Assembly: GCA_934167875.1 (NCBI GenBank)
Contig: CAKPMC010000004.1
Span: 21,214 to 85,213 of the forward strand
Reading direction: 5' to 3'
From: an uncultured Bacilli bacterium
Lineage (GTDB): Bacteria > Bacillota_I > Bacilli_A > RF39 > UBA660
DNA length: 64,000 nt
The position numbers and the translations under genes were made by a program. Shown one piece after another: positions 30,665 to 50,835 of the stretch. The notes under the pieces are model-generated. The model was given only the letters and a program-made list of their open reading frames with translations, was not told the origin of the DNA and made no database searches. Each line of letters begins with the position of its first letter. Within the stretch, counting starts at the first letter, position 1.

Positions 30665-31099
30665 ATGAGTAAAGGAATGACTATTGTAGGAATTATAATT
30701 ATTGGTGTATTAACACTATTTGTTGTTAATATCGTTCAAAACTATCAAAATGGTAGTGAACTTGATTTCTATTTGCTACAAGAAACAACAGAAGCAGCAA
30801 TGCTTGATGCTGTTGACTTAGGATACTATCGTTCTAGTGGTGGTATCCTAAGAGTAGATAGAGAAAAATTTCTAGAAAGCTTTGTTAGAAGATTTGCTGA
30901 AAGCGTAAATCAAGATAGAAATTATAAAATAAAAGTTATCGACTTCAATGAAACACCACCCAAAGTAAGTATCCAAGTTGGTTCAAGTACTGTTGCTACT
31001 TTTGCAGGTGACAGTTTTGATATAGTTACAAAAGTAGATGGAATATTAGAAACAAAATATTATGAAGACAGACTACTTAAAGATGTCGTAGAAGAATAA
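30665..31099 (+). CDS. pilin/pseudopilin-like small membrane-anchored protein (TadE/TadF-like candidate)
   Basis: 144 aa. A short polar N-terminus is followed by a single hydrophobic helix (MSKGMTIVGIIIIGVLTLFVVNIV) and then a hydrophilic domain. First gene of the Tad-like cluster. Confidence 0.35.
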   Translation: MSKGMTIVGIIIIGVLTLFVVNIVQNYQNGSELDFYLLQETTEAAMLDAVDLGYYRSSGGILRVDREKFLESFVRRFAESVNQDRNYKIKVIDFNETPPKVSIQVGSSTVATFAGDSFDIVTKVDGILETKYYEDRLLKDVVEE

Positions 31100-31115
31100 G
31101 AAAGGGGAAAATAAT

Positions 31116-31976
31116 ATGAAAGGTAATTTTTCAATGACTATTAAAAAGTTCTTAACTAATAAGAACACTGTTACTATTGTTGGGGTACTATTAGCAATAG
31201 TAATTCTATATGTTGGATATAACTACCGTGTTAAATCAGCAATTAATCCAATTAAAGTACCATATGCAAAACAAACTATAAATCCTAAAACTAAAATAAC
31301 TAGTGATATGATAGGAAGTATTGAGGTACCACCATCAATGCTAAAAGGTAAAGCTATTACCGATGTATCAAAAATAGTTGGTAAGTATGTTAGTGCTGAT
31401 ACTATCATACCAGAAGGAAGCTTATTTTATAGCGCAGCTGTTAAATCAGCTAGCGAAATGCCAGATTCAATTATCTATAATTATCCAGATGGTTGGGTAT
31501 TAGTTAATATGAGTGTTAACACTACTAATACTTATGGTAATAAAATCTTCCCAGGTAATTACATTGATATATATGTAAAAGCCGTAAATAAAATAGATGA
31601 AGATAATATGACTAGTGAAACCAAAGATAAAATCATGGTTGGTAAATTATTAGAAAATGTTAAAGTAATCGATGTAGTAGATGCAAATGGTGATAGTGTA
31701 TTCGAAAATCTTGAAGATATTAAAACACCATCTCAAATCATCTTTGCTGTACCAGAAGAATATCATATCTTACTTCGTAAAGCTATGTATTTAAGAACAT
31801 ATGAAGTAACATTAATTCCAGTACCAACTGCTGAATCATTAAAAGAAAATCCTGGTGAAGTAACTATTTCTAATGAAGCTTTAAAGAATTTCATTAATAA
31901 AGTAACTGTTTGGGATATAAATGTAACAGAAGATAATAATGGAAACATTAATATAGATTTAAATGGAAATCAATAA
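31116..31976 (+). CDS. cpaB: Flp pilus assembly protein CpaB/RcpC-like (SAF-domain protein)
   Basis: N-terminal TM followed by a beta-rich SAF-like domain and a C-terminal domain. The 286-aa size and position upstream of the CpaF ATPase fit CpaB. Confidence 0.55.
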   Translation: MKGNFSMTIKKFLTNKNTVTIVGVLLAIVILYVGYNYRVKSAINPIKVPYAKQTINPKTKITSDMIGSIEVPPSMLKGKAITDVSKIVGKYVSADTIIPEGSLFYSAAVKSASEMPDSIIYNYPDGWVLVNMSVNTTNTYGNKIFPGNYIDIYVKAVNKIDEDNMTSETKDKIMVGKLLENVKVIDVVDANGDSVFENLEDIKTPSQIIFAVPEEYHILLRKAMYLRTYEVTLIPVPTAESLKENPGEVTISNEALKNFINKVTVWDINVTEDNNGNINIDLNGNQ

Positions 31977-32003
31977 TAAAAAGAATAAAAAGGGGAAAAT
32001 ATT

Positions 32004-33521
32004 ATGAAAGAGAATATGTTTGAGCAACTCGATTTTGGGGCTTTTAAAGAGTATATTGATAATGATGATATTACCGATATATCATATACAAATAATGGTC
32101 AAATTTGGCTACGTTCTTTGGAAAAAGGTTCTTATCGAGTAGAAAATCCCAATATAACTAATGCAGCTGTTGAAAAGTTAGCATTCCAATGTTCCAATGT
32201 TATGGGAACTACTTTCAATAATGCTAATCCCTTTTTGGATGCAGAAAGTCCTGAACTTCGTATGAACTTCGTTCACGAATCAATAGCTACTAATGGTATT
32301 GCTTTAGTTATTCGTAAAACTCCAGCTAAGATTCGTTTAAAAGAAGAAAACTTATTAAAAGAAGATTACGTAACTAAAGATATTCATGACTTTCTAATCC
32401 AATGTGTATTAGGACATTGTAATATAATTGTTTGTGGAGAAACTGGTAGTGGTAAAACTGAGTTTGTTAAATACTTAGCTAGCCATACTAAAGAAAATGA
32501 AAAAATAATAACCATCGAGGATACACTAGAACTTCACTTAGATAAAATATATCCACATCGTGATATAGTAGCTATGAAGACAAATAATATTGCTTCATAT
32601 TCTGATGTATTAGTTACCTGTATGAGACAAAATCCTAAATGGATACTATTATCAGAAGTACGTAGTGCTGAAGCCGTTAGTGCAGTTCGTAACTCAATAT
32701 CATCAGGACATAATATTTTATCAACAATCCACTCAGATAAAGCTAGTGCAATACCACATCGTATGTATTCACTTATGGAAACAGATATAGATGTAGAACA
32801 ATTCTTAAATACAATCTATCGTTATGTTCAACTTGGTGTACATATCAAAGCATATTATAGTCAGAAATATGGTAAGTTTCATCGTGAAATAGATGAAATA
32901 ACAGAATTTTATATTGATGAAGAAACTAATAAACCAATTTATAATACTATTTATCAAAAAACAATGACTGGTAAAGTAGTTAAGAAAAATCCAAGTAAAC
33001 ATTTACTTGACTATTTATTAGGACAAAATATTGATGTTAGTAATACTGCTTTTGGTGATGATGTAGGTAAGGAAAAAGATGGCGAAATTAACATGGATAA
33101 AATAGTAGAAGCTGAAAATAGTAACAGCGTTGAAACTAAACAGCCAGAAAATAAACCTATGCCAGTAGATACTAATGATAATCAAGCACCAGTTGAAGAA
33201 GGTAACAAACCAGTTATAAATAGTAGTAATAATTATGAAGTAAAAACACCAGTAATTAGTCCTGAAGTAAAACCTACAACTACTGAAATAAAACCACAAC
33301 CTTCAACTATACCAGTAACTAATACATTAGCTACAAATGATGTAGTACCACCTGTTATTCCTAACGTAGTATCAACACCAGACATAAAACCATCAGGTCC
33401 AATTAGACCTACACCAGATCAGGTAGTACAAATACCAAATCAAAATAATAATTCAAATATTAGTCAATTTTCAATAAATGACATCTTAGCAAATTCAGGA
33501 GATCATAGTAATAATCAGTAA
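32004..33521 (+). CDS. cpaF: Tad/Flp pilus assembly ATPase CpaF/TadA (VirB11/GspE superfamily) with ~140-aa Pro/Thr/Val-rich disordered C-terminal extension
   Basis: Walker A GETGSGKTEF, IEDTLEL (Asp box), Walker B ILLSEVR and a His box STIHS. The C-terminal 140 aa (PVEEGNKPVIN...KPTTTEIKPQPSTIPV...) is low complexity. Confidence 0.8.
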   Translation: MKENMFEQLDFGAFKEYIDNDDITDISYTNNGQIWLRSLEKGSYRVENPNITNAAVEKLAFQCSNVMGTTFNNANPFLDAESPELRMNFVHESIATNGIALVIRKTPAKIRLKEENLLKEDYVTKDIHDFLIQCVLGHCNIIVCGETGSGKTEFVKYLASHTKENEKIITIEDTLELHLDKIYPHRDIVAMKTNNIASYSDVLVTCMRQNPKWILLSEVRSAEAVSAVRNSISSGHNILSTIHSDKASAIPHRMYSLMETDIDVEQFLNTIYRYVQLGVHIKAYYSQKYGKFHREIDEITEFYIDEETNKPIYNTIYQKTMTGKVVKKNPSKHLLDYLLGQNIDVSNTAFGDDVGKEKDGEINMDKIVEAENSNSVETKQPENKPMPVDTNDNQAPVEEGNKPVINSSNNYEVKTPVISPEVKPTTTEIKPQPSTIPVTNTLATNDVVPPVIPNVVSTPDIKPSGPIRPTPDQVVQIPNQNNNSNISQFSINDILANSGDHSNNQ

Positions 33522-33532
33522 GGAGGGTAACT

Positions 33533-34426
33533 ATGGAACTACTTATTTTATTAGCCATTGCCTTATTTGTAATGTTATATAGACAATATCGTGGGCAAAA
33601 CGTATATAAATTCATAACAGAACAAGCAGGAATGGTATATGATAAATTTGCTCCTTATTCTTTTAAGGTAGTAAGAGAGAAAACTAAAGAATTAGGTCAG
33701 GAATATACACCAAAACAGTATATTCTTCAGAGTGTAGTATTTACTATATTTGCAGCGGTTATTTCTTATTTATATTTTTATAATATTTTTATATCCCTTA
33801 TATATGTAATAATAGCCAATGCATGTATTCCATACTTAGCTTACTTAAGATGTAAAAGAGTATATAGTGAATTTATATTTGAACAAATCCAAGTATATAC
33901 TACTAATACTATTATGGAATTTGCTACTACTCAAAGTTTTGTTAAATCACTAGAAGGAGTAGCAGCCAGTGGAGTATTAGAAGATCCAGTACTAACTGAT
34001 GTTAATATGATGATTTCTATGGCATATGAAAATGGTTCTATTGATGAATCAGTAGAATATATGAGTTCTAAATATCCATATTATATAGTTAAAAATATGC
34101 ATCAATTATTCTTACAGATTACTAAAGAAGGAGCTAAAGATTCAGGAGAATCACTTGAAAATATGCAACTTGATATCGATATGCTTGTTGAAAGTGTATA
34201 TCGTGATCGTATTGATAGAGCTAACTTCCATAAATCATTCTTAAAATATGGTGTTATGTTGTACTTAATGGTAATGCTAGTTCAATATCTGTTAGGAAAA
34301 GAAACCTATATAGCTATTTTAAGTAATCCACTTATGATATGTATTCTTCATGGTATTTTAATAATCAACAGTTATTTTCTTCTAAAAGGAGAAAAATATT
34401 ATAACGAGAATGTAGGTGGAGAATAA
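33533..34426 (+). CDS. tadB: Tad pilus assembly inner-membrane protein TadB-like (T2SS-F family)
   Basis: 297 aa. One N-terminal TM, a cytoplasmic helical domain, then 2-3 C-terminal TMs. Directly follows cpaF. Confidence 0.6.
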   Translation: MELLILLAIALFVMLYRQYRGQNVYKFITEQAGMVYDKFAPYSFKVVREKTKELGQEYTPKQYILQSVVFTIFAAVISYLYFYNIFISLIYVIIANACIPYLAYLRCKRVYSEFIFEQIQVYTTNTIMEFATTQSFVKSLEGVAASGVLEDPVLTDVNMMISMAYENGSIDESVEYMSSKYPYYIVKNMHQLFLQITKEGAKDSGESLENMQLDIDMLVESVYRDRIDRANFHKSFLKYGVMLYLMVMLVQYLLGKETYIAILSNPLMICILHGILIINSYFLLKGEKYYNENVGGE

Positions 34427-35211
34427 TGGAAGTAATTATTTGTGGAGCTCTTATCTTAGGAGTATTACTTTATAATAAAACAGTAGATGGTAAAAAGTTT
34501 GTTCAAGATAATCAAGATATTTTCTACTTACTAAAAGAAAGTGATTATGACTTCTTAGTAGCTGCCAAATATGGTGAAAAAGTTGATCCTAATGTTTTAT
34601 TTAATAAAAGATTAAAAATGGCTTTTATTACTATGGTAATATTTCTATTTATATTTTTAACAGAATTATCAGTTCTTAATGTTGTTTTATCATTATTTGT
34701 TGGTTATATTGTTTTTAAATCTAATTATACATCTTTAAAAAAGTATTATAAGAAACATTTACATGATATAGATGTAATGTTGCCATACTATTTAAAGGGT
34801 CTAGAAATTTTAATTCAACATTATACTGTACCAGTAGCATTAGCTAAATCAATAGATGATGCACCAGAAATATTTAAACCTGGACTAAGAAATCTAATTG
34901 CTAAAATTGATGCAGGTGATTATAGTATTGATCCATATATGGAATTTGCTAATGAGTATCCTGTTAGAGATTCAATGCGTATGATGAGATTACTATACCG
35001 TTTAGGTTTAGGTAAACAAGAAGATAAACAAGAAAGATTATTAATGTTTTCAAGAACAGTTTCTAACTTACAAGCTAAGGCAAGAGAAACCAAGTATAAA
35101 GAAAGATTAAATCATATGGAAAGTCAAACTATGATAATGCTAGTAGCAACAGGTGCTGGTGTTATGGTACTTATCCTAATATCTATGCTTTATATGTTCC
35201 AGAATATTTAG
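34426..35211 (+). CDS. tadC: Tad pilus assembly inner-membrane protein TadC-like (T2SS-F family)
   Basis: 261 aa with the same topology as the preceding gene. Its start abuts the tadB stop. Confidence 0.6.
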   Translation: MEVIICGALILGVLLYNKTVDGKKFVQDNQDIFYLLKESDYDFLVAAKYGEKVDPNVLFNKRLKMAFITMVIFLFIFLTELSVLNVVLSLFVGYIVFKSNYTSLKKYYKKHLHDIDVMLPYYLKGLEILIQHYTVPVALAKSIDDAPEIFKPGLRNLIAKIDAGDYSIDPYMEFANEYPVRDSMRMMRLLYRLGLGKQEDKQERLLMFSRTVSNLQAKARETKYKERLNHMESQTMIMLVATGAGVMVLILISMLYMFQNI

Positions 35212-35276: not shown

Positions 35277-36590
35277 ATGAACAAAAAAAATATATTGATA
35301 TATTTAACTTTTGTAATACTATTAATCATTGTCTCATGTTTATCTCAAACGGAATTAGATGGAGTTTGGGGTTATGGTTTTAGTTACAACATAGCTAGTG
35401 GACTTATTCCATATAGAGACTTTAATATGGTAGTAGGTCCATTATATAGTATTATTTTTTCAATATTTATAAAAATATTTGGGAATTATTTTTTAGTATT
35501 TTCTATACAAAGTGCACTTATATATGGATTAATTATGTTACCAATATATAAAAAGATAGGTTGGAAATCCATTTATATAATATTACTACTGGGATGTTGT
35601 TTAACAACTTTTGGTTATAATACTTTTTGTGCCATGTTAGTATTACTAATAATGTGTATAGAAGATAGTGATTATAAGTATAAAACAATGCTAACAGGAA
35701 TATTAATTGGTACAATAATAATGACAAAACACAATATTGGTATTTGCTTATTATTAGTATTTTTATTAATTAATTATAAAAAGAAACTACAAGTTTTAAG
35801 TGTTTTAATTCCAATAATTCCAACAATTATTTATTTAATTGTCAACAATACCTTTTATTCATATATTGATTTTTGTTATCTTGGACTTGGTAAATTTTTA
35901 GATAATTTATATATAGATATTTTCACAATTCCTATAATAATTTATGTCATATATTTTATAATAAAAAATTATAGAATAAATAAAGATAAAATAATTCTTT
36001 ATTTATTAGCATTTCAAGTAATGGTATTTCCAATATTTGATCAGGGGCATATTTTACCAGCATTGATTCCATTTACATACTATATATTTGCTAAAAACGA
36101 ATATCCAAAAGTAAAATTTTATTTAAGCTATTTTATTATAATAGGAATATCAGTTAATACTATTTCCAACTTAGTATTAACAAAAGTATATATGAATAAT
36201 GATTATTTATTTTTACAAAGAGTAAAAACTGAAACCATAACATATCTTGATAATTACTCAAAATACCTAGAGAAAAACAAAGATAAAAAAATATATTTAT
36301 TACTAGATAATGCATATTTAATAAAAATATATCGCAATGAAAATCCAACTTTTTATGATTTAATAAATATGGGAAATTTAGGTAGTAATGAGCAAAAGTA
36401 TATAGACAATATGTCAAAGGAATGTGCTAATAAGAAGTGTATGTTTATTTTAGATAAAAGATACTTTGTAAAAAAATTATATGGTGAACAAAGATCAGAA
36501 ACATTTAAAAAATATACCATAAATAATGCTAATTATTTAGAAACATTACCATCTGGAGATAGAGTATATGTTAATTATGTAAATGAATAA
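35277..36590 (+). CDS. polytopic membrane protein (about 11 TM) with C-terminal soluble domain; possible GT-C-like glycosyltransferase within the Tad cluster
   Basis: 437 aa. The first extracytoplasmic loop has ELDGVWGYGFSYN...PYRDF. Extremely AT-rich. Confidence 0.3.
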   Translation: MNKKNILIYLTFVILLIIVSCLSQTELDGVWGYGFSYNIASGLIPYRDFNMVVGPLYSIIFSIFIKIFGNYFLVFSIQSALIYGLIMLPIYKKIGWKSIYIILLLGCCLTTFGYNTFCAMLVLLIMCIEDSDYKYKTMLTGILIGTIIMTKHNIGICLLLVFLLINYKKKLQVLSVLIPIIPTIIYLIVNNTFYSYIDFCYLGLGKFLDNLYIDIFTIPIIIYVIYFIIKNYRINKDKIILYLLAFQVMVFPIFDQGHILPALIPFTYYIFAKNEYPKVKFYLSYFIIIGISVNTISNLVLTKVYMNNDYLFLQRVKTETITYLDNYSKYLEKNKDKKIYLLLDNAYLIKIYRNENPTFYDLINMGNLGSNEQKYIDNMSKECANKKCMFILDKRYFVKKLYGEQRSETFKKYTINNANYLETLPSGDRVYVNYVNE

Positions 36591-36672: not shown

Positions 36673-36858
36673 ATGAAAGAAGCAACTGGAGAATTAAATA
36701 TGACAGTAGTTACTATTATAGCTATAGGTGCAGTAATTGCATTCTTCTGGTTCATGTGGCCACAAATAAGAAATACTATTCAAGGAACTTGGAATGGTAT
36801 AGATTCAGGAAAAGATTGCATTAAAAATCCAGATAGTTGTAATACAAAAGCTGAATAA
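36673..36858 (+). CDS. Flp-type pilin candidate (61 aa, single TM, C-terminal Cys pair)
   Basis: MKEATGELNMTVVTIIAIGAVIAFFWFMW... is a short polar leader ending in Gly, followed by a hydrophobic helix. Strong AAGGAGGAG RBS. Confidence 0.4.
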   Translation: MKEATGELNMTVVTIIAIGAVIAFFWFMWPQIRNTIQGTWNGIDSGKDCIKNPDSCNTKAE

Positions 36859-36893: not shown

Positions 36894-37415
36894 GTGAAAG
36901 ATGCTATAAGTGGTGCATTGACACTACAAATAATTTTAATATTTATGATTATTATTAATTGTTACTTAGCTTTTAGTGTTAATTACACTAAAGCTTTTCG
37001 TATTAAGAATGAAATACGTAACATTATTGAAAAGAACGAAGGATTAACCTGTTCAGCAGTAAATCAAATAAATGATTTAATGTTGAAGGTTAATTATGGC
37101 GTTCAAAGCGGTGAAAGAAAATGCCCTGAAGATTATGAAACAGCAGCACTAAATAATGGATTATTCTGTTATAAATACCAAAAAGTAGATGTAACAGGTA
37201 CATCAAATCAAGGTTCAACATATAAAGGAGCTTATTATACGGTACTAACATTTGTTGATGTAGATATACCAATATTTAATAAAATATTTCCTGAAATAGC
37301 TCTTTTAAATGAAACTTTCACAAGTAAAGGTGAAACATCATTGATTTACTCTTCAGGAGAAATTGGTAGTGGATTACCAGATGATTGTTCAAAAAGTTCC
37401 ACTGCTAGCGAATAG
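36894..37415 (+). CDS. TadE-like pseudopilin candidate
   Basis: MKDAISG/ALTLQIILIFMIIINCYLAFSV N-terminus of prepilin-like topology, followed by a 140-aa hydrophilic domain. GTG start. Confidence 0.4.
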   Translation: MKDAISGALTLQIILIFMIIINCYLAFSVNYTKAFRIKNEIRNIIEKNEGLTCSAVNQINDLMLKVNYGVQSGERKCPEDYETAALNNGLFCYKYQKVDVTGTSNQGSTYKGAYYTVLTFVDVDIPIFNKIFPEIALLNETFTSKGETSLIYSSGEIGSGLPDDCSKSSTASE

Positions 37416-38404: not shown

Positions 38405-38407
38405 TAA

Positions 38408-38875: not shown

Positions 38876-38921
38876 TGATATAATTACCTTGGTATATTAT
38901 AATTTCAAGGAGTGTAACTTT

Positions 38922-45033: not shown

Positions 45034-45059
45034 AAAAGTAGTAAAGGCAGGTGAGCTGT

Positions 45060-47804
45060 ATGGATGAAGAACAAGAAAATTTAGAAAAGCAAAAGCAAGC
45101 TGATAATAATCAAAAGACAGCTCACGTTGCTGGTAAAGCAGCAGCAACTTACTATGGAGGAGCTGCTGGTGGTCAACTATATGATGCAGCAAGTAAAACT
45201 AAAGTAGGGCAAGCAATAGAAAAGAATGCAGCTAAAAATATCAGTAACAATCCTGCTTTAAATAGAGCCAGTCAAAAGTTAAATGATGTTGGCGCTATGG
45301 ATGCCGCTGACAAGGGAATTGATTTAGCTGGTGGCAGTATGGGCAAGGGGGCACCTAATCCATCAGGTGGTGGCATGAACAAGCCAGGACTATCACCATC
45401 TACAGGTAGTGAAGGTGGTAAACCAGGTTTAGATCAAGGTAATAAAACTTCTAATTCTGGAGAGTCATCAAATTCAAATACAAATACCTCAGGTGGTAAA
45501 AAGAAATTAAACAATCTTTTCGGAAGTGGCGAAGGTAATGCCGATAGCTCAGATAGTTCAACTGAAAATGAAAGTTATGCTAGCAAAATATTTAAATTTA
45601 TAAAAAGTCATCCTAAACCATTCATCTCTATGGGTGGTGGTTTTCTACTAATATTAGTACTAATCATAGCAGTTATTTCGATAGCTGATTCGGTAGTGGG
45701 TGGCGTTATTGATTTTTTCAACAACGTAAAAGACACACTAATAGGTTTCTTCACAAAAGATGAAGAAGAATTAATGAATGATTATTATGATACATTAAAA
45801 AATACTCAAATAGATATCAATGAAGATTATAGTGTTTGTATTGATGTAAATTTAATAACAGCTGCTCTTACAGTTAATGTAGCTGCTGATGATTTTGTTA
45901 ACGATGGTGAACAGATTGATCCATCTGGAGACGGCGACACTACAACTAATGAAGATGGTACTCAATCTACTAAACCATATAAAAAAATGACAAAGCAAGT
46001 AAAACTTTTAGCATATATGCAACTTATGACTAGTAAATATGGTTTAGATAAAAGTTATAAAGAAACTAATGGTAGTTATTGTAGTAGTGACAATAAAACG
46101 CCAGTGTTAGTAGATAGTAGCAAAGTAAATGATTATGAAGGTGAAAAAACACCTTGGGTAAGTATAGATAGTTCAAATTTTGATTTAATATCTAGACATG
46201 ATTTGGGTGAAAATCTTAACTTTAAATTATTAAAAACAACGTCAGAAAAAAATTATGCCTATTATTTATATTATCCTAAATATAATTCTGATGGTAGTTG
46301 TGATGATTCATATGCTAAAGGTGCATTACCAGAAGAGAAAAAAGAGTTAAGTATAGGTGATTTAAAGACAAAAGAAGATTCTGTTTTCTACTGGAATTTA
46401 ATTAACTCATTTATACCAGATTATTATAAAGACTATTTACCAGATAAAGATGCTGCTAATTATGATGAAGCTGTAAAGAAAATAGCTGATGATATATATC
46501 TATTATATGCTGAAACAGGACCTAGCCAAACATGTGCTAGTAGTTATCAAGGACCATCTAGTCTATGTCCAAATGGTATAACCGTAGTTGGTAAAGATGG
46601 TAATGCTAGTACAATCGATTTTGAAGAATACATAGCTGGAGTTGTTTCAAATGAAGCTTATAGTAGTGAAGGAATGGAAGCACTAAAGGCACAAGCAGTA
46701 GCAGCTCGTACCTATGCTATTAATTTAACTAATTATTGTGAAAAAACTATTTCTAATAGTACCAATGCTCAAACATTTACCAAAGATATTAATGATAGAG
46801 CACGAGAAGCAGCAACCTCAACCGCTGGTGAAATACTAGTGGATTCAAATGGTAAAATCTTTGGAGCTCAGTATGATTCTTTCTGTTATGATGATAAAGA
46901 CTGTCCAGATGCTAAGAAAAATGCTGATGGAACATATTCAGTTACTTATACCAAAGTTCCTAATGGAGAAAAACATGTAATTACTTTAAGTGATCCTAAA
47001 CAATATGGAAGAATAACGCATGGTAAAGGACATGCTCATGGTATGAGTCAGTTATTATCATATCAAATGGCAAAAGAAGGAAAAACTTATCAAGAAATAT
47101 TATCTTATTTCTATTCAGATGGTGTAACAATTAATTTAGTATTATCACCAACTACTACTGAAGGTGGTACGATTATTAATAAACCAATTGAACACTATTT
47201 AAGTGCCGTTGGAACCAACATTAATAATATGAATCAAACTATCTATAGCCAAGTAAGAAAAGCAGGAGTTGGAACTAGAGAAGGTGTTGTGGCAGCTGCC
47301 GTAACCTTAATTAATAACTTCTATTCACAAACAGGATATCTTCTTCCATATGAGTTATATCCTAGTGGTAAATATTCAGGATATGGAATGGATCCAAGTT
47401 GGGGTACTAACACAGGAAGATCCGATTATCCTTCAAATGGTTTAGATTGTAGTGGCTTTGTTTCATGGGCTATTCATAATGGTGGCTTCAAGTACGAAGT
47501 AAAAAGTGCTAAAGGATGGGGCGATTCCAGCGCAAGAAGACCTTGGACTAAAGGAATGACTGATACCTCAGCTAAACCAGGTGATTTAATCTATAACGCA
47601 CCTCAAAGTGCTAATGGTACTACAGGTCATATTAGAATGATAGTTGAAGTTACCAAAGAAGGTTATGTTGTAGCTGAAGCAAGTTCTAGAAAAAATGGTG
47701 TTAGAATCAAAACCATTTCCTTTACAAGTACAGGTAATTATTATTTAGTTAATATGGATAACTATTATGCCAGTGCTACAAAAGTAACAGATTACCCACA
47801 ATAG
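45060..47804 (+). CDS. T4SS-associated cell-wall hydrolase: N-terminal G/S-rich region, TM, SpoIID/LytB-like domain and C-terminal NlpC/P60 peptidase (CwlT/TcpG/Orf14 analogue)
   Basis: SpoIID-like EYIAGVVSNEAYSSEGMEALKAQAVAARTYAIN and NlpC/P60 Cys-His region GLDCSGFVSWAIHNGG...TGHIRMIV. One TM near residue 200. Confidence 0.7.
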   Translation: MDEEQENLEKQKQADNNQKTAHVAGKAAATYYGGAAGGQLYDAASKTKVGQAIEKNAAKNISNNPALNRASQKLNDVGAMDAADKGIDLAGGSMGKGAPNPSGGGMNKPGLSPSTGSEGGKPGLDQGNKTSNSGESSNSNTNTSGGKKKLNNLFGSGEGNADSSDSSTENESYASKIFKFIKSHPKPFISMGGGFLLILVLIIAVISIADSVVGGVIDFFNNVKDTLIGFFTKDEEELMNDYYDTLKNTQIDINEDYSVCIDVNLITAALTVNVAADDFVNDGEQIDPSGDGDTTTNEDGTQSTKPYKKMTKQVKLLAYMQLMTSKYGLDKSYKETNGSYCSSDNKTPVLVDSSKVNDYEGEKTPWVSIDSSNFDLISRHDLGENLNFKLLKTTSEKNYAYYLYYPKYNSDGSCDDSYAKGALPEEKKELSIGDLKTKEDSVFYWNLINSFIPDYYKDYLPDKDAANYDEAVKKIADDIYLLYAETGPSQTCASSYQGPSSLCPNGITVVGKDGNASTIDFEEYIAGVVSNEAYSSEGMEALKAQAVAARTYAINLTNYCEKTISNSTNAQTFTKDINDRAREAATSTAGEILVDSNGKIFGAQYDSFCYDDKDCPDAKKNADGTYSVTYTKVPNGEKHVITLSDPKQYGRITHGKGHAHGMSQLLSYQMAKEGKTYQEILSYFYSDGVTINLVLSPTTTEGGTIINKPIEHYLSAVGTNINNMNQTIYSQVRKAGVGTREGVVAAAVTLINNFYSQTGYLLPYELYPSGKYSGYGMDPSWGTNTGRSDYPSNGLDCSGFVSWAIHNGGFKYEVKSAKGWGDSSARRPWTKGMTDTSAKPGDLIYNAPQSANGTTGHIRMIVEVTKEGYVVAEASSRKNGVRIKTISFTSTGNYYLVNMDNYYASATKVTDYPQ

Positions 47805-47813
47805 GAGGATATA

Positions 47814-48551
47814 ATGAAAAAGAAAATATTTATATTAACATTTTTACTCCTTTGTGTAACAGGTTGTAATGCTAATTACGATATAGAAATATATAATAAT
47901 CAAGTAAAAGAGGATATGCAATTTGTTGAATTAGATTCATCAGTTTGGGATAGTGAGGTACAATATGGCCTTAGTTACCGTAACTTATTAGAAGCTTCAA
48001 TTGATTATCCATATCCTGCTTTTAATGATGCTGTAGTAGATGAAGATGATACCATTAAATTAGAAGGTGTTGAATATTATGATAATACTTTAATATCAGA
48101 TAATCTTAAATTAGGACAAAGATTAAAATATAATAAATTTACTTTAAATGATTTCAGTAAGTCATCAATAGTTAGAAAATGTTATCAATATTTTACTGTT
48201 AAAGAAGAGGAAGATAATATAATAATTTCTACATCACTAGAAAACCTATGCTTTAGTGAATATCCAATCTTAGACAGAATAACTATAAATCTAAAAACAA
48301 ATCATAAAGTAGTTAGTAGTAATGCAACCAAGGTAAAAGGATATCACTATACATGGGATATTACTAGAGATAATAGTAGTGATAGTGCTATTTCAATTAC
48401 TCTTAAAAAAGATGATTATATTTTCAATTATGAAAATGAATTCATTAAAAAAATTATTTACATTGTTCTAATAGTTGGTATAATACTAAGTGTTAGTAGT
48501 ATATGTTACTTTTACTTTAAAAATAAGAATAAACGATTAAATGAAATCTAG
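47814..48551 (+). CDS. lipoprotein with C-terminal TM anchor, unknown function
   Basis: Lipobox LLCVTGC. Hydrophobic helix IIYIVLIVGIILSVSSICYF near the C-terminus. Confidence 0.45.
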   Translation: MKKKIFILTFLLLCVTGCNANYDIEIYNNQVKEDMQFVELDSSVWDSEVQYGLSYRNLLEASIDYPYPAFNDAVVDEDDTIKLEGVEYYDNTLISDNLKLGQRLKYNKFTLNDFSKSSIVRKCYQYFTVKEEEDNIIISTSLENLCFSEYPILDRITINLKTNHKVVSSNATKVKGYHYTWDITRDNSSDSAISITLKKDDYIFNYENEFIKKIIYIVLIVGIILSVSSICYFYFKNKNKRLNEI

Positions 48552-48561
48552 GAGGTAGTAT

Positions 48562-50835
48562 ATGAAATTAAAGTTTAAAGCAGATGCAACTGATGTATTA
48601 ATATTTGTAATATTTGCTATATTTTTATTCTATATAGTTTGCTTAGGAGTACTTAATTTTCCTGAGTTAGCACTAAATGGACATTTTTATGGACTAAATC
48701 CATTTCCTGCTTTAGCACCTGACAGGATTGTTACAACTTTAGTTTTTTATCTTATCTTCCTAGCTGCTATTTTTGCATCTGTATCATCATATTTCTTTGA
48801 AAGAGAAAGTGGTTTTGGTTTCTCAACAGAAAAATCTTCAAAAGGTTACAGTCATTGGGCCAAAGAAAAAGAAATTAAAAGTGATAACGGTGTTGAAATG
48901 GTAAAACCAACAGCTGATAAGTCAGAATATGCTGGTATACCACTAATTATAAAAAAAGATGAAGTATGGGTAGATAACGGTGAGTATCACTCATTAGTAA
49001 TAGGAGCTACCGGATCAGGTAAAACTCAAACTGTTATTTTTCCTACTGTAGAAGTTTTAGCTAAGAAAAGAGAATCAATGATTATCACTGACCCTAAAGG
49101 TGAAATCTATGAAAAAACTTCAAATATGCTACGTGACAAAGGTTATGATGTCTTAGTACTTAACTTCCGTGATCCACAAAATGGTAGTGCTTGGAACCCA
49201 TTATCTCTTCCATATCGTATGTATAAATCAGGAAATCAAGATAAAGCTATTGAGTTATTAGATGACCTAGCTGCTAATATTCTTTATGAAGAAAAAAGTG
49301 GTAATGCTGATCCATTCTGGGAAAAAACATCAGCTGATTATTTTGCAGGACTTGCTCTTGGTATGTTTGAAGATACCACAGAAGATAAAGTAAATATTAA
49401 TAGTATTAGTTTAATGACAACTGTTGGTGAAGAAAAATTTGGCGGTTCTACATACATTAAAGAATATTTCAATACTAAAGATCCTAGTAGTCCAGCATAT
49501 ACAAATGCCAGTGGTACTATAATGGCACCTAGTGAAACTAAAGGAAGTATCATTTCTGTATTTAAACAAAAAATAAAATTATTTGCATCTCGTGAAAATT
49601 TATCAGAAATGTTAAGTCATAGTGATATAGATCTTGAAACTATTGGTGAAAAACCTACAGCCTTATTCATTATCATTCAAGATGAAAAGAAAACTTACCA
49701 TCCATTAGTTACAATTTTATTAAAACAATGTTATGAAACATTAATAGCTACAGCTCAAAAACATGGTGGAAAATTACCAGTTAGAACTAATTTCTTACTA
49801 GATGAGTTTGCTAATATGCCACCACTTAAGGATATAACTACAATGATTACAGCAGCCCGTAGCCGTCAAATTCGTTTTACAATGATAATTCAAAACTTTG
49901 CTCAATTAGATCAAGTGTATGGTAAAGAAAATGCAGAAACTATCAAAGGTAACTGTGGAAATATTATTTACTTAATAACAACCGAATTAAAAGCTCTAGA
50001 AGAAATCAGTAAAATGTGTGGTGAAGTAAAATCTAAGAAAGATGATAAAACAGCTTCAACACCACTTGTTACTATAAGTGATTTGCAACGTATGAAACAG
50101 TTTGAAGTAATTATTATGCGTATGCGTAAGAACCCTTTCAAAACTAAATTTGTTCCATATTATCAAATGGATTTTGGTAAAAAATATGCTAAAGCTGAAT
50201 ATCCAGAGCGTACTAAGGAAGAAGTTCATACTTTTGACTTAAGAGAATATGTAAAAGAAAAGAAAAAAGAAAAATTAATGCAAATGATGAATGATCCTCA
50301 ATCAGCTCCAATGGGTGGTATGCCAAACGGTATGCCTGGTGGTTTTGGAATGCCAAATATGAATTCATTCCCTCAAGGCGGTATGTTTGGACCTCGATCA
50401 ACACCTATGCCAGATAATAGACCAAATTCTATGAGTTCCAATAGTGAAATGGGAAATGGTGCTGGAATTAATGTAGATGATATTATTAAGAAAATTGATG
50501 CTAAAATCGCTGAAATTGAAAAAGAGGAACAACAGAAAAAACAACAGAATAATATTACTGAAGAGCCAAAATCAACAATTGAACCTAAATTAGAAGTCAA
50601 GGAAGAAAAAGTCCCTGATACCACTCCTAAAGAAAAATTAACAATTGATGATCTATTAAAACCATCTTCAAATCAAGAAATTATTCCAAAAGAAGAAAAT
50701 TTAAAAGAAGACAAAAAGTTAGAGGAAATGGTACCAGTTAATGAACCTAAACCAATAATTCATGAAGAAAAAATACCACCTAAAGAAGATAATATTAGTG
50801 ATGATCAATTCTTTGATGATTTCTTTGATGATTAA
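48562..50835 (+). CDS. type IV coupling protein (VirD4/TraG family) with long disordered Met/Gly/Pro- and Glu/Lys/Pro-rich C-terminal tail
   Basis: Two N-terminal TMs, Walker A VIGATGSGKTQ and Walker B FLLDEFANMPP. The C-terminal tail contains PMGGMPNGMPGGFGMPNMNSFPQGGMFGP repeats. Confidence 0.8.
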   Translation: MKLKFKADATDVLIFVIFAIFLFYIVCLGVLNFPELALNGHFYGLNPFPALAPDRIVTTLVFYLIFLAAIFASVSSYFFERESGFGFSTEKSSKGYSHWAKEKEIKSDNGVEMVKPTADKSEYAGIPLIIKKDEVWVDNGEYHSLVIGATGSGKTQTVIFPTVEVLAKKRESMIITDPKGEIYEKTSNMLRDKGYDVLVLNFRDPQNGSAWNPLSLPYRMYKSGNQDKAIELLDDLAANILYEEKSGNADPFWEKTSADYFAGLALGMFEDTTEDKVNINSISLMTTVGEEKFGGSTYIKEYFNTKDPSSPAYTNASGTIMAPSETKGSIISVFKQKIKLFASRENLSEMLSHSDIDLETIGEKPTALFIIIQDEKKTYHPLVTILLKQCYETLIATAQKHGGKLPVRTNFLLDEFANMPPLKDITTMITAARSRQIRFTMIIQNFAQLDQVYGKENAETIKGNCGNIIYLITTELKALEEISKMCGEVKSKKDDKTASTPLVTISDLQRMKQFEVIIMRMRKNPFKTKFVPYYQMDFGKKYAKAEYPERTKEEVHTFDLREYVKEKKKEKLMQMMNDPQSAPMGGMPNGMPGGFGMPNMNSFPQGGMFGPRSTPMPDNRPNSMSSNSEMGNGAGINVDDIIKKIDAKIAEIEKEEQQKKQQNNITEEPKSTIEPKLEVKEEKVPDTTPKEKLTIDDLLKPSSNQEIIPKEENLKEDKKLEEMVPVNEPKPIIHEEKIPPKEDNISDDQFFDDFFDD

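What the first reader, a model, noticed from the sequence alone, without database searches (positions are those of the whole stretch)
30665..50835. Complete Tad/Flp-type pilus machinery adjacent to a Gram-positive T4SS conjugation-like module
One uninterrupted same-strand block of about 20 kb first encodes pseudopilin-like, CpaB, CpaF/TadA, TadB, TadC, Flp-like pilin, TadE-like and TadZ-like proteins. It then runs straight into VirB2-like, VirB6-like, VirB3-like, VirB4, cell-wall hydrolase and VirD4 genes. Gram-positive conjugation systems are generally considered pilus-less and rely on surface adhesins. A dedicated Tad pilus physically coupled to the mating-channel genes suggests a pilus-assisted mating-pair-formation or DNA/protein translocation system. 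This would be analogous to thin type IV pili of IncI plasmids, but built from Tad parts. I am not aware of this architecture being characterised.
Basis: partly seen in the sequence, partly recalled or inferred. Interest (0 to 1): 0.9.

Follow-up and report, generated by a model that had tools for sequence, protein, structure and literature searches.

The report
Chromosomal Tad-like plus T4SS hybrid locus
The Tad-like pilus genes and the Gram-positive type IV secretion genes are really there and are kept together across many species of uncultured, small-genome gut Bacilli (order RF39). The locus is a fixed chromosomal system with no relaxase in sight, and it is related to a little-studied module already present in Bacillus plasmids such as pLS20 and pXO1.

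Summary

**Strongly identified:**
- T2SSE-family ATPase
- VirB4, conserved as two translationally coupled genes
- VirD4
- SpoIID+CHAP hydrolase
- DUF5411 protein

**Supported only by profile-profile or fold evidence:** TadB/TadC-like platform proteins, CpaB, a TadZ-like protein with a degenerate Walker A, two VirB2-like pilins, and VirB6.

**Not verified:** the "Flp", "TadE" and "VirB3" labels. No prepilin peptidase lies in the locus, so "complete" is not shown.

**Extent and conservation:** The conserved unit is larger than reported, about 23.0-50.8 kb. It keeps the same gene order in 56 of 64 related genomes with enough flank. It sits at a fixed chromosomal site next to a rhodanese gene, and its core genes are under purifying selection. 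No relaxase or integrase was found in the window, and no relaxase homologue in 2.7 Mb of related loci.

**Precedent:** Homologous Tad-like modules sit beside T4SS genes in pLS20, pXO1, pBMB64 and about 370 Bacillaceae plasmids. The architecture is therefore not unprecedented. The papers I could search call only the ATPase "VirB11" and leave the other genes unknown.

**Best reading:** a domesticated pLS20/pXO1-type mating-pair apparatus, analogous to the relaxase-less chromosomal T4SS of Patescibacteria. This is a new variant of a known kind.

The parts
23009..23422 (-). Membrane-anchored thioredoxin-like protein at the upstream edge of the conserved unit
   Evidence: Pfam Thioredoxin E 7.5e-12. 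N-terminal hydrophobic segment. Present in the same place and orientation in 26 related loci.
23528..25093 (+). 521-aa protein with a polytopic N-terminus and an extracellular C-terminal domain
   Evidence: About 5 hydrophobic segments. Weak DUF4352 hit. Conserved in 70 loci. dN/dS 0.2-0.45.
25095..26903 (+). 602-aa membrane-anchored surface protein with an Ig-like domain
   Evidence: Bact_surface_Ig-like E 1.3e-18. Conserved in 74 loci. An Ig-like protein also precedes DUF5411 in the Priestia plasmid. Fast-evolving, dN/dS 0.3-0.8.
26911..27684 (+). 257-aa divergent sortase-like protein
   Evidence: Weak Sortase hit E 2.4e-4. GH and LKTC motifs are visible in the sequence. Conserved in 75 loci. 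Substrate unknown; no LPXTG motif was found in the neighbouring proteins.
27736..30654 (+). 972-aa secreted protein with 31 cysteines, a candidate adhesin or tip component
   Evidence: Signal peptide and 31 Cys. Conserved in 78 loci but only about 31% identical. dN/dS 0.3-0.76.
30665..31099 (+). DUF5411 protein with an N-terminal hydrophobic helix, a pseudopilin-like candidate
   Evidence: PF17424 E 8e-48. Conserved in 80 loci. A DUF5411 gene sits directly upstream of CpaB in the Priestia plasmid as well. dN/dS about 0.08-0.2.
31116..31976 (+). CpaB/RcpC-like protein with a SAF domain
   Evidence: RcpC E 2.4e-6, SAF E 2.8e-4, TIGR03177 E 9.8e-9. The positional counterpart upstream of the CpaF/VirB11 gene in pXO1 is annotated CpaB.
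32004..33521 (+). Secretion ATPase of the TadA/CpaF-FlaI-VirB11 group, with a low-complexity C-terminal tail
   Evidence: PF00437 E 2.9e-27. VirB11, TadA, TrbB and FlaI models all match below their cut-offs. PDB hits to FlaI, CpaF and VirB11 are all about 1e-17. The best plasmid hits are pLS20-family 'tadA' / gene 37, about 33% identity. There are 7380 homologues; the top 120 are 66-99% identical.
33533..34426 (+). TadB-like platform protein, a distant T2SSF relative
   Evidence: No direct Pfam or PDB hit. hhalign to the Bacillaceae plasmid family gives 99.2%, E 9.4e-20. Members of that family hit T2SSF at E 3.4e-5, 7e-4 and 9e-3. Topology is 1+2+2 hydrophobic segments. dN/dS 0.06-0.16. The AF2 model failed, pLDDT 45.
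34426..35211 (+). TadC-like second platform protein
   Evidence: hhalign to the gene after TadB in the Priestia plasmid gives 97.2%, E 3e-11. Similarity to the TadB-like profile is only weak, 38.7%. Conserved in 81 loci.
35277..36590 (+). 437-aa polytopic membrane protein; a variable insert, not part of the conserved core
   Evidence: No family hit. About 10 hydrophobic segments. Present in only 3 of 84 related loci.
36673..36858 (+). 61-aa pilin-like protein with a short leader and one hydrophobic helix
   Evidence: The invariant N-terminus MK(E/A)ATGELN(M/L)TV(V/I)T is followed by a hydrophobic stretch, and the C-terminus is variable. Found in 71 loci. Bacillaceae plasmids carry 47-89-aa single-helix proteins in the same position, in 2-3 tandem copies in pXO1-like plasmids. 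No Flp G/XXXXEY motif.
36894..37415 (+). 173-aa DUF4320-like protein, a minor-pilin candidate
   Evidence: The N-terminus M(R/K)DAxGG is followed by a hydrophobic helix. hhalign to DUF4320 proteins of pXO1, pBMB64, the Priestia and Exiguobacterium plasmids, plus the pLS20 positional counterpart, gives 90.9%, E 1.2e-6 over 72 residues.
37430..38404 (+). TadZ-like two-domain protein: an N-terminal alpha/beta domain plus a ParA/MinD-fold domain with a degenerate P-loop
38497..38826 (+). VirB2-like T4SS pilin, 109 aa with two transmembrane helices
   Evidence: T4SS_pilin E 5e-4; Mbov_0395 pilin-like E 0.03. Two hydrophobic segments. Found in 72 loci. It fits the size, topology and position criteria of ter Beek et al. 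2025.
38889..40259 (+). 456-aa secreted protein whose C-terminal 96 residues form a second VirB2-like domain
   Evidence: hhalign of the VirB2-like profile to residues 361-456 gives 98.9%, E 2.1e-17. T4SS_pilin E 0.009. The N-terminal part evolves fast, dN/dS 0.4-0.6.
40253..42379 (+). VirB6-like polytopic channel protein
   Evidence: MMCAP2_0566 family E 1.9e-12; pLS20_p028 family E 6.2e-8; Mbov_0396 E 1.3e-7; all below their cut-offs. About 6-7 hydrophobic segments.
42400..42723 (+). 107-aa membrane protein in the VirB3/PrgI position
   Evidence: Hydrophobic region 14-71. Conserved in 55 loci. hhalign to PrgI/DUF5592 gives only 8.5%, with a shared YLIPxNxK motif. The identification rests on position only.
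42698..43249 (+). N-terminal part of VirB4, encoded as a separate gene
   Evidence: Matches positions 99-276 of the Mbov_0397 VirB4 model, E 4.9e-13. The separate ORF overlaps the next gene by ATGA or TAATG in 24 of 24 related loci. dN/dS 0.05-0.18.
43246..45033 (+). ATPase part of VirB4
   Evidence: Mbov_0397 family E 1.9e-102 over model positions 297-893; CD1110 family E 1.3e-49. AAA_10 and TraG P-loop hits.
45051..47804 (+). Bifunctional cell-wall hydrolase, the VirB1 analogue
   Evidence: SpoIID E 3e-15; CHAP E 1.7e-6; NlpC/P60 E 5e-5. SpoIID_LytB 98.6 bits, above the cut-off.
47814..48551 (+). 245-aa lipoprotein with a C-terminal membrane anchor; poorly conserved
   Evidence: Lipobox LLLCVTGC and a C-terminal hydrophobic segment. 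Detected in 14 of 80 VirD4-centred loci. No family hit.
48562..50835 (+). VirD4-type coupling protein
   Evidence: T4SS-DNA_transf E 2.9e-61. CD1115 family 316 bits, above the cut-off of 250. It ends the locus in 80 metagenomic relatives and is followed by rhodanese in 47 of them.
20333..22994 (+). Thioester-domain/SpaA adhesin plus sortase; a variable accessory, not part of the conserved core
   Evidence: TED and SpaA domains; Sortase E 6.7e-16. Found in only 1 related locus. The pLS20 Tie adhesin occupies the analogous position.

Best explanation
The stretch from about 23.0 to 50.8 kb is one vertically inherited chromosomal locus of an uncultured, small-genome gut bacterium of the Bacilli order RF39. 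It encodes a composite cell-envelope machine.

**First half (inferred roles).** A TadA/VirB11-family hexameric ATPase works on two TadB/TadC-like membrane platform proteins. With CpaB-like and TadZ-like partners, it assembles a short filament or pseudopilus. The filament would be built from a roughly 55-aa pilin-like subunit plus minor subunits (DUF5411, DUF4320-like). It may be decorated by fast-evolving surface proteins.

**Second half (inferred roles).** A monoderm (MPF-FATA-type) type IV secretion channel is built from two VirB2-like pilins, VirB6, a two-gene VirB4 and a wall hydrolase, and is fed by a VirD4 coupling protein.

**Origin and function (inferred).** The machine descends from the mating-pair apparatus of pLS20/pXO1-type Firmicutes plasmids. 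It has been fixed on the chromosome without a detectable relaxase. I therefore think it makes cell-to-cell contact and translocates a substrate (DNA or protein) to or from neighbouring cells, rather than spreading a mobile element.

**Shown versus inferred.**
- Shown: gene identities at the stated levels, conserved synteny, chromosomal context, purifying selection, and homology to the plasmid modules.
- Inferred: filament formation, cooperation of the two halves, and the substrate.
For: - **Gene identities:**
- **Synteny:** the order Trx-521-Ig-257-Cys-DUF5411-CpaB-ATPase-TadB-TadC-pilin-173-TadZ-VirB2-456-VirB6-107-VirB4N-VirB4C is kept in related genomes. VirB6/VirB4 lies within reach in 56 of 64 loci, at 61-91% ATPase identity.
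- **VirD4 end:** VirD4-centred metagenomic loci show the same T4SS order upstream and a conserved rhodanese flank in 47 of 80.
- **Lineage:** loci come from Ca. Faecimonas (GTDB CAG-877), Mycoplasma sp. CAG:877 and 'Tenericutes' MAGs. Ca. Faecimonas is placed in RF39, with a 1.4 Mb genome at 28% GC (PMC8035907).
- **Context:** housekeeping and polysaccharide genes flank the locus and there is no tRNA.
- **Selection:** core genes have dN/dS 0.05-0.2 and surface proteins 0.3-0.8.
- **VirB4 split:** conserved in 24 of 24 loci.
- **TadB/TadC link:** to the plasmid family and to T2SSF.
- **TadZ-like fold:**
- **Pilin-like N-termini:**
- **Plasmid modules:** the same module sits beside T4SS genes in pLS20, pBMB64, a Priestia plasmid and pXO1, in differing orders, and in 368 plasmids overall.
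- **Precedent:** Patescibacteria carry a chromosomal, relaxase-less MPF-FATA T4SS (PMC12102498).
Against: - No prepilin peptidase lies in the locus, and no homologue of the pXO1-like candidate gene was found.
- The pilin lacks the Flp motif.
- TadB/TadC are linked to T2SSF only transitively, and the AF2 model of TadB failed.
- The TadZ-like P-loop lacks the lysine.
- The ATPase scores slightly better against VirB11 than against TadA models.
- In a minority of relatives, such as L005, housekeeping genes follow the Tad-like block and a VirB2-like gene, so the halves can be separated.
- The relaxase search covered only the window ORFs scanned with Pfam, plus tblastn with three relaxase types in the flanks. 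It did not cover whole genomes.
- A promoter-like site in the 93-nt gap before the VirB2-like gene allows separate transcription of the two halves.
- There are no expression or imaging data.
Confidence: 0.55

Rival explanations
1. The 'Tad-like' half is not a pilus machine. It is a T4SS-specific energising sub-assembly: a VirB11 homologue with dedicated membrane partners. It helps assemble the VirB2/VirB6 channel or its short VirB2 pilus, and no type IV-filament-type fibre is exported.
For: - The best NCBIfam match of the ATPase is VirB11 (122 bits, against 97 for the TadA family).
- The pLS20 literature calls the homologue VirB11 (PMC8557374).
- No prepilin peptidase lies in the locus.
- There is no Flp motif.
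- VirB2-like pilins are present and, according to a 2025 preprint, form the pilus in most Gram-positive T4SS.
Against: - Canonical VirB11 does not work with GspF/TadB-type platform proteins. Here two such proteins, a CpaB/SAF protein, a ParA/MinD-fold TadZ-like protein and small single-helix subunits with an invariant short leader all accompany the ATPase.
- The ATPase is as close to CpaF and FlaI as to VirB11.
- pXO1-like plasmids carry 2-3 tandem copies of the small subunit gene, as expected for a major structural subunit.
Confidence: 0.25
2. It is a genuine integrative conjugative element, or the MPF module of one. Its relaxase, oriT and recombinase lie outside the window, as in Mycoplasma ICEs, and it moves itself or chromosomal DNA between RF39 cells.
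For: - VirD4 is present and well conserved.
- VirB4 and VirB6 match Mycoplasma ICE families best.
- The homologous plasmid systems are conjugative.
- GC content is higher in the 28-51 kb windows (about 0.23-0.34; 0.29-0.34 across 39-51 kb) than in most of the flanks (about 0.20-0.27; the TypA region downstream reaches 0.32).
Against: - No relaxase or integrase family hit was found in the window ORFs scanned with Pfam. The short ORFs at 61976-63833 were only read, not scanned.
- tblastn with MobP2, MobP3 and replication-relaxation proteins found nothing in 2.73 Mb of related loci.
- The locus has the same neighbours (rhodanese, then TypA) in many species, and sequence identity falls gradually, which indicates vertical descent.
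- No tRNA or repeat boundary was seen.
Confidence: 0.12
3. Two independent systems, an adhesion pilus and a T4SS, that are merely neighbours.
For: - In L005/L006 and a few other loci the T4SS genes are not adjacent.
- A strong promoter-like match lies in the gap at 38408-38436.
Against: - The two blocks are adjacent in 56 of 64 genomes.
- The association is kept in distant plasmids even though the gene order is rearranged.
- A VirB2-like gene stays attached to the Tad-like block even where the other T4SS genes are absent.
Confidence: 0.06

Closest known systems
Conjugation operon of Bacillus subtilis plasmid pLS20 (pLS20 family)
   Same: - The order is adhesin, small N-terminal-helix protein, CpaF/VirB11-family ATPase (gene 37; best plasmid tblastn hit, 33% identity), two membrane proteins with TadB/TadC-like topology (genes 38, 39), a DUF4320-like gene 40, and a 47-aa single-helix gene 41.
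- This is followed by a small two-helix protein, a roughly 440-aa protein with a C-terminal transmembrane segment, VirD4, VirB6 (p028 family), a DUF5592 protein and VirB4.
   Different: - pLS20 is a plasmid with a MobP2 relaxase and regulatory genes, and VirD4 precedes VirB6.
- pLS20 has no annotated CpaB or TadZ-like gene in the stretch shown.
- The window locus is chromosomal with no relaxase found, and its VirB4 is split.
- In the papers found, genes 38-47 are 'unknown' and no Tad relationship is discussed.
Tad-like clusters of pXO1 (B. anthracis), pBMB64-type B. thuringiensis plasmids and a Priestia koreensis plasmid
   Same: DUF5411 or DUF4320, CpaB/SAF, CpaF/VirB11, a TadB homologue (hhalign 99.2%), a TadC homologue and small pilin-like genes lie near PrgI/VirB4/VirD4 genes.
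   Different: - The plasmids have a canonical AAA_31 TadZ-type ATPase between CpaB and CpaF (E 1.5e-14). The window instead has a P-loop-degenerate TadZ-like gene after the pilins.
- The distance and order relative to the T4SS genes differ.
- The plasmids are annotated as carrying relaxases; pBMB64 and the Priestia plasmid show the gene in the stretch fetched.
Chromosomal MPF-FATA type IV secretion system of Patescibacteria (PMC12102498)
   Same: A monoderm-type T4SS (VirB4, VirB6, VirB2-like pilins, often a T4CP) is conserved on the chromosome of small-genome bacteria, mostly without a relaxase. It is proposed to have been co-opted for a non-conjugative role, and type IV pili are also important for the lifestyle.
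   Different: - The phylum differs.
- In that paper the T4P genes are not described as fused into the T4SS locus, and 'Tad' is not mentioned.
- No epibiotic lifestyle is known to me for RF39.
Canonical Tad/Flp (type IVc) pili (Aggregatibacter, Caulobacter, Bifidobacterium)
   Same: A TadA/CpaF-group ATPase, two single-domain platform proteins, CpaB/RcpC, a ParA/MinD-type TadZ/CpaE, very small pilins and minor pilin-like proteins.
   Different: - There is no Flp G/XXXXEY motif and no TadV/CpaA peptidase in the locus.
- The platform proteins are too diverged for Pfam.
- The TadZ-like P-loop is degenerate.
- The locus is fused to a T4SS.
Thin type IV pilus of IncI plasmids (R64, TP114) and of PAPI-1
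   Same: A type IV-filament machine encoded alongside a T4SS promotes mating-pair formation (my knowledge; summarised in PMC12857230).
   Different: Those are type IVb pili of diderm bacteria with PilV adhesins. The homology here is to Tad/archaeal-type components, in a monoderm.
Ups pili plus the Ced DNA-import system of Sulfolobales
   Same: An archaeal-type type IV pilus cooperates with a VirB2/VirB4/VirB6-like apparatus for chromosomal DNA exchange without a relaxase. Papers listed, not read in full: PMC9905601 and PMC11868833. The rest is my knowledge.
   Different: - Ced imports DNA and has no VirD4.
- The genes are not in one locus.
- These are archaea.

Membership tests
Tad/Flp (type IVc) pilus system | TadA/CpaF-type secretion ATPase | tested here: inconclusive
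   The T2SSE domain is clear. No TadA, CpaF or VirB11 equivalog cut-off is reached. The VirB11 model scores 122 bits and the TadA-family model 97. CpaF, FlaI and VirB11 are equidistant in the PDB.
Tad/Flp (type IVc) pilus system | Two TadB/TadC platform proteins with a T2SSF domain | tested here: inconclusive
   There is no direct T2SSF hit among 25 homologues and no PDB hit. The link is transitive: hhalign 99.2% to a plasmid family in which 3 of 7 members hit T2SSF below the gathering score. The AF2 model is unusable.
Tad/Flp (type IVc) pilus system | Flp-type prepilin with a G/XXXXEY processing motif | tested here: not met
   The small protein has an invariant MK(E/A)ATGELNxTVxT N-terminus and no EY motif.
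Tad/Flp (type IVc) pilus system | Dedicated prepilin peptidase (TadV/CpaA, peptidase A24) | tested here: not met
   No A24 hit in any ORF of the locus. No homologue of the pXO1-like candidate membrane protein was found in the window or in 164 related loci. A canonical type IV prepilin at 59235 implies that a PilD/ComC-type enzyme exists elsewhere in the genome. The whole genome could not be tested.
Tad/Flp (type IVc) pilus system | CpaB/RcpC | tested here: inconclusive
   RcpC scores 27.9 bits against a gathering score of 28.8. SAF scores 21.8 against 21. TIGR03177 scores 34.8 against 71.
Tad/Flp (type IVc) pilus system | TadZ/CpaE: receiver-like N-terminal domain plus a MinD/ParA ATPase domain | tested here: inconclusive
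   The two-domain fold is predicted with high confidence, and the C-terminal domain is ParA/MinD-like. The match to 3fkq is no better than to other ParA proteins. The Walker A lysine is missing.
Monoderm (MPF-FATA) type IV secretion system | VirB4 ATPase | tested here: met
   Mbov_0397 family E 1.9e-102 and CD1110 family E 1.3e-49, though below the equivalog cut-offs. It is encoded as two conserved genes.
Monoderm (MPF-FATA) type IV secretion system | VirD4-type coupling protein | tested here: met
   CD1115 family scores 316 bits against a cut-off of 250; PF02534 E 2.9e-61.
Monoderm (MPF-FATA) type IV secretion system | VirB6-like polytopic protein, VirB1-like hydrolase and VirB2-like two-helix pilin next to VirB6 | tested here: met
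   VirB6-family hits at E 1e-12 to 1e-7. SpoIID+CHAP hydrolase. A VirB2-like protein plus a fused paralogue.
Monoderm (MPF-FATA) type IV secretion system | VirB3/PrgI-like and VirB8-like subunits | tested here: inconclusive
   The 107-aa protein is in the right position, but hhalign to PrgI gives only 8.5%. No VirB8-like protein was recognised; the 245-aa lipoprotein is unassigned.
Self-transmissible conjugative element (plasmid or ICE) | Relaxase (and oriT) associated with the T4SS | tested here: not met
   No relaxase family hit in the window ORFs scanned. No tblastn hit for three relaxase types in 2.73 Mb of related loci. oriT and whole genomes were not tested.
Self-transmissible conjugative element (plasmid or ICE) | Integrase or recombinase, and variable insertion with defined ends | tested here: not met
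   No integrase was found. The only transposase-like gene (PDDEXK_2, 52555) lies outside the locus. The rhodanese flank is the same in 47 of 80 relatives. There is no tRNA.

The most novel reading that the evidence does not exclude
RF39 gut Bacilli, which have genomes of about 1.4 Mb, keep as a core, vertically inherited organelle a fusion of a Tad-like filament machine and a monoderm T4SS that has lost its link to a mobile element. They would use it for obligate cell-to-cell interaction: taking DNA or metabolites from neighbouring gut bacteria, delivering effectors to them, or exchanging chromosomal DNA among themselves. This would be a convergent counterpart of the T4SS/T4P dependence of Patescibacteria. 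It would also make the unexplained 'VirB11 plus unknown genes' block of pLS20 and pXO1 a Tad-type mating filament.
Probability: 0.3. Interest if true: 0.8.

Novelty: new variant of a known kind. Interest (0 to 1): 0.62.

Why it matters
- **A different kind of filament.** Gram-positive conjugation has been described as pilus-less. VirB2-type pili were proposed for these systems only in late 2025. A second, Tad-type filament module embedded in the same loci would add a different kind of filament to that picture. In the 2021 pLS20-family paper the homologues of the platform and small-subunit genes (38-41) are listed as 'unknown'.
- **A tractable test system.** Such a module could explain features such as efficient liquid mating of pLS20. 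Because pLS20 is genetically tractable, the idea can be tested directly.
- **RF39 biology.** RF39 is a widespread, uncultured gut lineage with small genomes. A roughly 28-kb machine conserved under purifying selection in 1.4-Mb genomes is likely to be central to its lifestyle, and may hint at dependence on other cells.
- **T4SS domestication.** It would be a second, independent example, after Patescibacteria, of a conjugation-type T4SS domesticated on the chromosome.

Tried and rejected
1. Megablast of the 20-kb block against plasmids found no match.
2. Direct Pfam, NCBIfam and PDB-sequence searches of the TadB-, TadC- and TadZ-like proteins, alone and as 25- to 45-member alignments, gave nothing significant.
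3. AF2 of the TadB-like protein with a shallow MSA (80-100% identity) gave pLDDT 45, so it was not used for fold search.
4. The third homologue search, with the Priestia plasmid TadB as query, returned only the query itself.
5. I suspected that the 181-aa membrane protein after the pilin genes of a pXO1-like plasmid was a TadV-type peptidase. Pfam did not support this, and it has no homologue in the RF39 loci, so I make no claim.
6. DUF5411 showed no detectable relationship to DUF4320 or to the 173-aa protein.
7. The TadZ-like profile against the plasmid AAA-type TadZ gave 1.4% probability.
8. The VirB2-like profile against pLS20 gene 45 gave 3.6%.
9. The 107-aa protein against PrgI gave 8.5%.
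10. The TadB-like profile against the TadC-like profile gave only 38.7%, so paralogy is not demonstrated.
11. Ten literature searches found no paper on an RF39 T4SS, or on a Tad-type module in Gram-positive conjugation. The library lacks most subscription journals, so absence is weak evidence.
12. dS is near saturation (about 1), so the dN/dS values are only rough.

Full report
**1. What is in the window**

The window is AT-rich (GC 0.20-0.34), and nearly every ORF of 90 aa or more is on the + strand.

From 30665 to 50835 the ORFs abut or overlap. The largest gap is 93 nt, at 38404-38497.

Family searches give firm identities for these genes:
- DUF5411 (30665, E 8e-48)
- a T2SSE secretion ATPase (32004, E 2.9e-27)
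- VirB4 (43246, Mbov_0397 family, E 1.9e-102)
- a SpoIID+CHAP/NlpC hydrolase (45051)
- a VirD4 coupling protein (48562, CD1115 family, 316 bits against a cut-off of 250)

Weaker but consistent hits identify:
- CpaB/RcpC+SAF (31116)
- a VirB2-like pilin (38497, T4SS_pilin E 5e-4)
- a VirB6-like protein of the pLS20_p028/MMCAP2_0566 families (40253)

The ORF at 42698-43249 matches the N-terminal part of VirB4 (model positions 99-276). The ORF at 43246-45033 matches positions 297-893, so VirB4 is encoded in two frames.

**2. Context**

Upstream, 1-20.2 kb is a polysaccharide and glycosyltransferase locus. Next come:
- a thioester/SpaA adhesin with its sortase
- a thioredoxin on the - strand
- two surface proteins
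- a sortase-like protein
- a 972-aa secreted protein with 31 cysteines

Downstream of VirD4 lie rhodanese, VanZ, a PD-(D/E)XK transposase, TypA/BipA, LspA, RluD, a rhomboid protease and a canonical type IV prepilin.

There is no tRNA. No relaxase, integrase or replication family appeared in any of the ORFs scanned. This is chromosomal DNA, not an obvious island.

**3. Relatives**

The ATPase has thousands of homologues in metagenomes. The best 120 are 66-99% identical.

A scan of one genome per species found at least 574 genomes encoding a relative. The 80 loci kept come from 'uncultured Bacilli/Tenericutes' MAGs, Ca. Scybalousia, Ca. Faecimonas and Mycoplasma sp. CAG:877. Ca. Faecimonas is GTDB genus CAG-877, order RF39, with a 1.4 Mb genome at 28% GC (PMC8035907). 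A TadB-like protein 100% identical to the window's is named from a 'Tenericutes bacterium' MAG.

tblastn of the window proteins against these loci shows one conserved order: Trx(-), 521, Ig, 257, Cys-rich, DUF5411, CpaB, ATPase, TadB-like, TadC-like, pilin-like, 173, TadZ-like, VirB2-like, 456, VirB6, 107, VirB4N, VirB4C.

- Of 64 loci with at least 10.5 kb downstream of the ATPase start, 56 have VirB6/VirB4 in reach.
- A metagenome scan centred on VirD4 gave 80 loci. They carry the same T4SS order upstream, and 47 carry a rhodanese gene downstream.
- The 437-aa membrane protein occurs in only 3 loci, and the thioester adhesin with its sortase in only 1.
- In a minority of loci, such as L005/L006, the Tad-like block and a VirB2-like gene are followed by housekeeping genes.

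The VirB4 split, with an ATGA or TAATG overlap, is present in 24 of 24 loci. It is a real two-gene arrangement and not a pseudogene.

Pairwise dN/dS (NG86, with dS near saturation) gives:
- 0.05-0.2 for DUF5411, ATPase, TadB/TadC-like, TadZ-like and VirB4
- 0.3-0.8 for the Cys-rich, Ig-like, 456-aa and VirB6 proteins

The pattern is a conserved core with fast-evolving exposed parts.

**4. Are the Tad labels right?**

*ATPase.* It is as close to FlaI and CpaF as to VirB11 in the PDB, all about 1e-17. It scores slightly higher with the VirB11 model than with the TadA-family model.

*TadB-like protein.* It gave no Pfam hit in any of 25 homologues and no PDB hit. tblastn did find the genes immediately downstream of the CpaF/VirB11 gene in Bacillaceae plasmids. 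One of these is annotated 'type II secretion system F family protein'.
- Profile-profile comparison gives 96.6% probability to that protein, and 99.2% (E 9.4e-20, 249 columns) to an alignment of seven plasmid homologues that includes pXO1 and pLS20 gene 38.
- Three of those seven hit Pfam T2SSF below the gathering score, at E 3.4e-5, 7e-4 and 9e-3.

*TadC-like protein.* It aligns to the next plasmid gene at 97.2%.

I accept both as diverged platform proteins, but the link is transitive. My AF2 model of the TadB-like protein was unusable, with pLDDT 45.

*The 61-aa protein.* It has an invariant N-terminus, MK(E/A)ATG-ELN(M/L)TV(V/I)T, followed by a hydrophobic helix and a variable tail. This looks like a short class-III-type leader but is not the Flp G/XXXXEY motif.

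*The 173-aa protein.* It has M(R/K)DAxGG plus a hydrophobic helix. It aligns to DUF4320 proteins of the plasmid modules at 90.9%, E 1.2e-6. It is not TadE by any test.

*TadZ-like protein.* It has no sequence-level hit. With a 45-sequence MSA, AF2 gives pLDDT 91.4 and two alpha/beta domains.
- The conserved P-loop region (G..N.T..AG.T) has no lysine, so it is probably not an active ATPase.

*Prepilin peptidase.* None is in the locus. The canonical prepilin at 59235 (KQAFTLIEM) implies one elsewhere in the genome.

**5. The T4SS half**

Beside VirB4, VirD4, the hydrolase and VirB6, the C-terminal 96 residues of the 456-aa protein are a paralogue of the 109-aa VirB2-like protein (98.9%, E 2.1e-17). 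The system therefore has a free VirB2-like pilin and one fused to a fast-evolving extracellular domain.

The 107-aa protein sits where VirB3/PrgI would be, but it is not significantly similar to PrgI.

VirB4 and VirB6 match Mycoplasma ICE families best. This places the system in the monoderm MPF-FATA group as defined by Guglielmini et al. (PMC4027160).

**6. Is the architecture known?**

The same module lies beside T4SS genes in several plasmids:
- pLS20: adhesin, ATPase 'tadA', two membrane proteins, small proteins, then VirD4-VirB6-VirB4 and a relaxase
- pBMB64: T4SS first, then SAF-AAA-ATPase-membrane proteins-DUF4320
- a Priestia plasmid: relaxase, VirD4, Ig-like protein, DUF5411, SAF, CpaF/VirB11, T2SS F
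- pXO1: DUF4320, CpaB, AAA ATPase, CpaF/VirB11 and a TadB homologue, about 12 kb upstream of PrgI/VirB4

The TadB homologue occurs in 368 plasmid records. pXO1-like plasmids have two or three tandem 67-aa pilin-like genes.

The association is therefore old and widespread in Firmicutes, and annotation pipelines already name parts of it.

In the literature I could search:
- The pLS20-family paper calls gene 37 'putative VirB11' and lists genes 38-47 as unknown. It states that Gram-positive elements form no conjugative pili (PMC8557374).
- A 2022 review of B. cereus-group conjugation mentions only VirB11.
- A 2025 T4SS review discusses T4P-T4SS hybrids only for IncI and PAPI-1, and does not contain 'Tad' or 'pLS20'.
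- A December 2025 preprint reports VirB2-like pili in most Gram-positive T4SS.

I found nothing on RF39.

The closest conceptual parallel is the chromosomal, mostly relaxase-less MPF-FATA T4SS of Patescibacteria (PMC12102498).

**7. Interpretation**

The conserved synteny, the fixed chromosomal site and purifying selection argue for one vertically inherited, functional system. So does the recurrence of the Tad-like and T4SS association in rearranged form on distant plasmids. It most likely derives from a pLS20/pXO1-type mating-pair apparatus.

A tblastn search with MobP2, MobP3 and replication-relaxation proteins found nothing in 2.73 Mb of RF39 loci. I therefore favour a domesticated contact-dependent transfer machine over a self-transmissible element, but whole genomes were not available to me.

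Three points are inferences, not results:
- whether the first half exports a filament or only energises the channel
- what the substrate is
- whether the two halves are co-transcribed

On co-transcription, the best promoter-like match in the scanned 22.9-41 kb stretch lies in the 38.4-kb gap, and no + strand terminator-like site is there.

**8. Verdict**

The labels 'complete', 'Flp', 'TadE' and 'VirB3' are not established.

It is wrong that this is an island-borne conjugation system, and wrong that the architecture has no precedent.

I rate it a new variant of a known kind, of moderate to high interest.

Noticed in passing
window 42698-45033; L025-L085: VirB4 is encoded as two translationally coupled genes: an N-terminal domain of about 181-191 aa and an ATPase part of about 596 aa. 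They overlap by ATGA or TAATG, and the arrangement is conserved in 24 of 24 related loci. It is a stable split, not a frameshift error.
   Followed up: yes
window 38889-40259: The 456-aa secreted protein carries a C-terminal VirB2-like two-helix domain that is paralogous to the neighbouring 109-aa pilin (hhalign 98.9%). Its N-terminal part evolves fast. It may be a pilin-anchored adhesin or tip protein.
   Followed up: partly
window 23009-23422 (-) and 27736-30654: A membrane-anchored thioredoxin-like gene on the opposite strand is conserved at the edge of the locus. Nearby is a 972-aa secreted protein with 31 cysteines. This suggests dedicated extracytoplasmic disulfide formation for a surface component.
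   Followed up: no
window 26911-27684: A divergent sortase-like protein with GH and LKTC motifs is conserved in 75 related loci. None of the neighbouring proteins shows an LPXTG-type sorting signal, so its substrate is unknown.
   Followed up: partly
window 35277-36590: A 437-aa polytopic membrane protein with no family hit is inserted between the TadC-like and pilin-like genes. It is present in only 3 of 84 related loci. It may be a GT-C-type modifying enzyme, but this was not tested.
   Followed up: partly
window 20333-22994: A thioester-domain/SpaA adhesin with its own sortase sits just upstream. It is found in only one relative, but it is analogous to the Tie adhesin at the start of the pLS20 conjugation operon.
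   Followed up: partly
window 59235-61136: A 633-aa protein with a canonical type IV prepilin N-terminus (KQAFTLIEM; N_methyl E 6.9e-8), which is unusually large for a pilin. It implies a separate type IV pilus or competence system and a PilD/ComC peptidase elsewhere in the genome.
   Followed up: no
window 33050-33521: The ATPase has a low-complexity C-terminal tail of about 150 residues, rich in P, T, N and Q. The tail varies in length among homologues; many cover only 70-80% of the query.
   Followed up: no
window 28000-51000: GC content is about 0.23-0.34 in the 28-51 kb windows (0.29-0.34 across 39-51 kb), against about 0.20-0.27 in most of the flanks. The TypA region downstream also reaches 0.32. 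This could reflect stronger protein constraint or an old foreign origin.
   Followed up: no
L170:4669-5421 and L168:17671-18153 (pXO1-like plasmids): Two or three tandem, nearly identical 67-aa pilin-like genes follow the TadB/TadC homologues, and a 181-aa polytopic membrane protein comes next. I suspected the membrane protein to be a TadV-type peptidase, but Pfam did not support that.
   Followed up: partly
window 50922-51239: A single-domain rhodanese gene follows VirD4 in the window and in 47 of 80 relatives, sometimes after an extra Ig-like gene. It may be only a syntenic flank, or it may be functionally linked.
   Followed up: no
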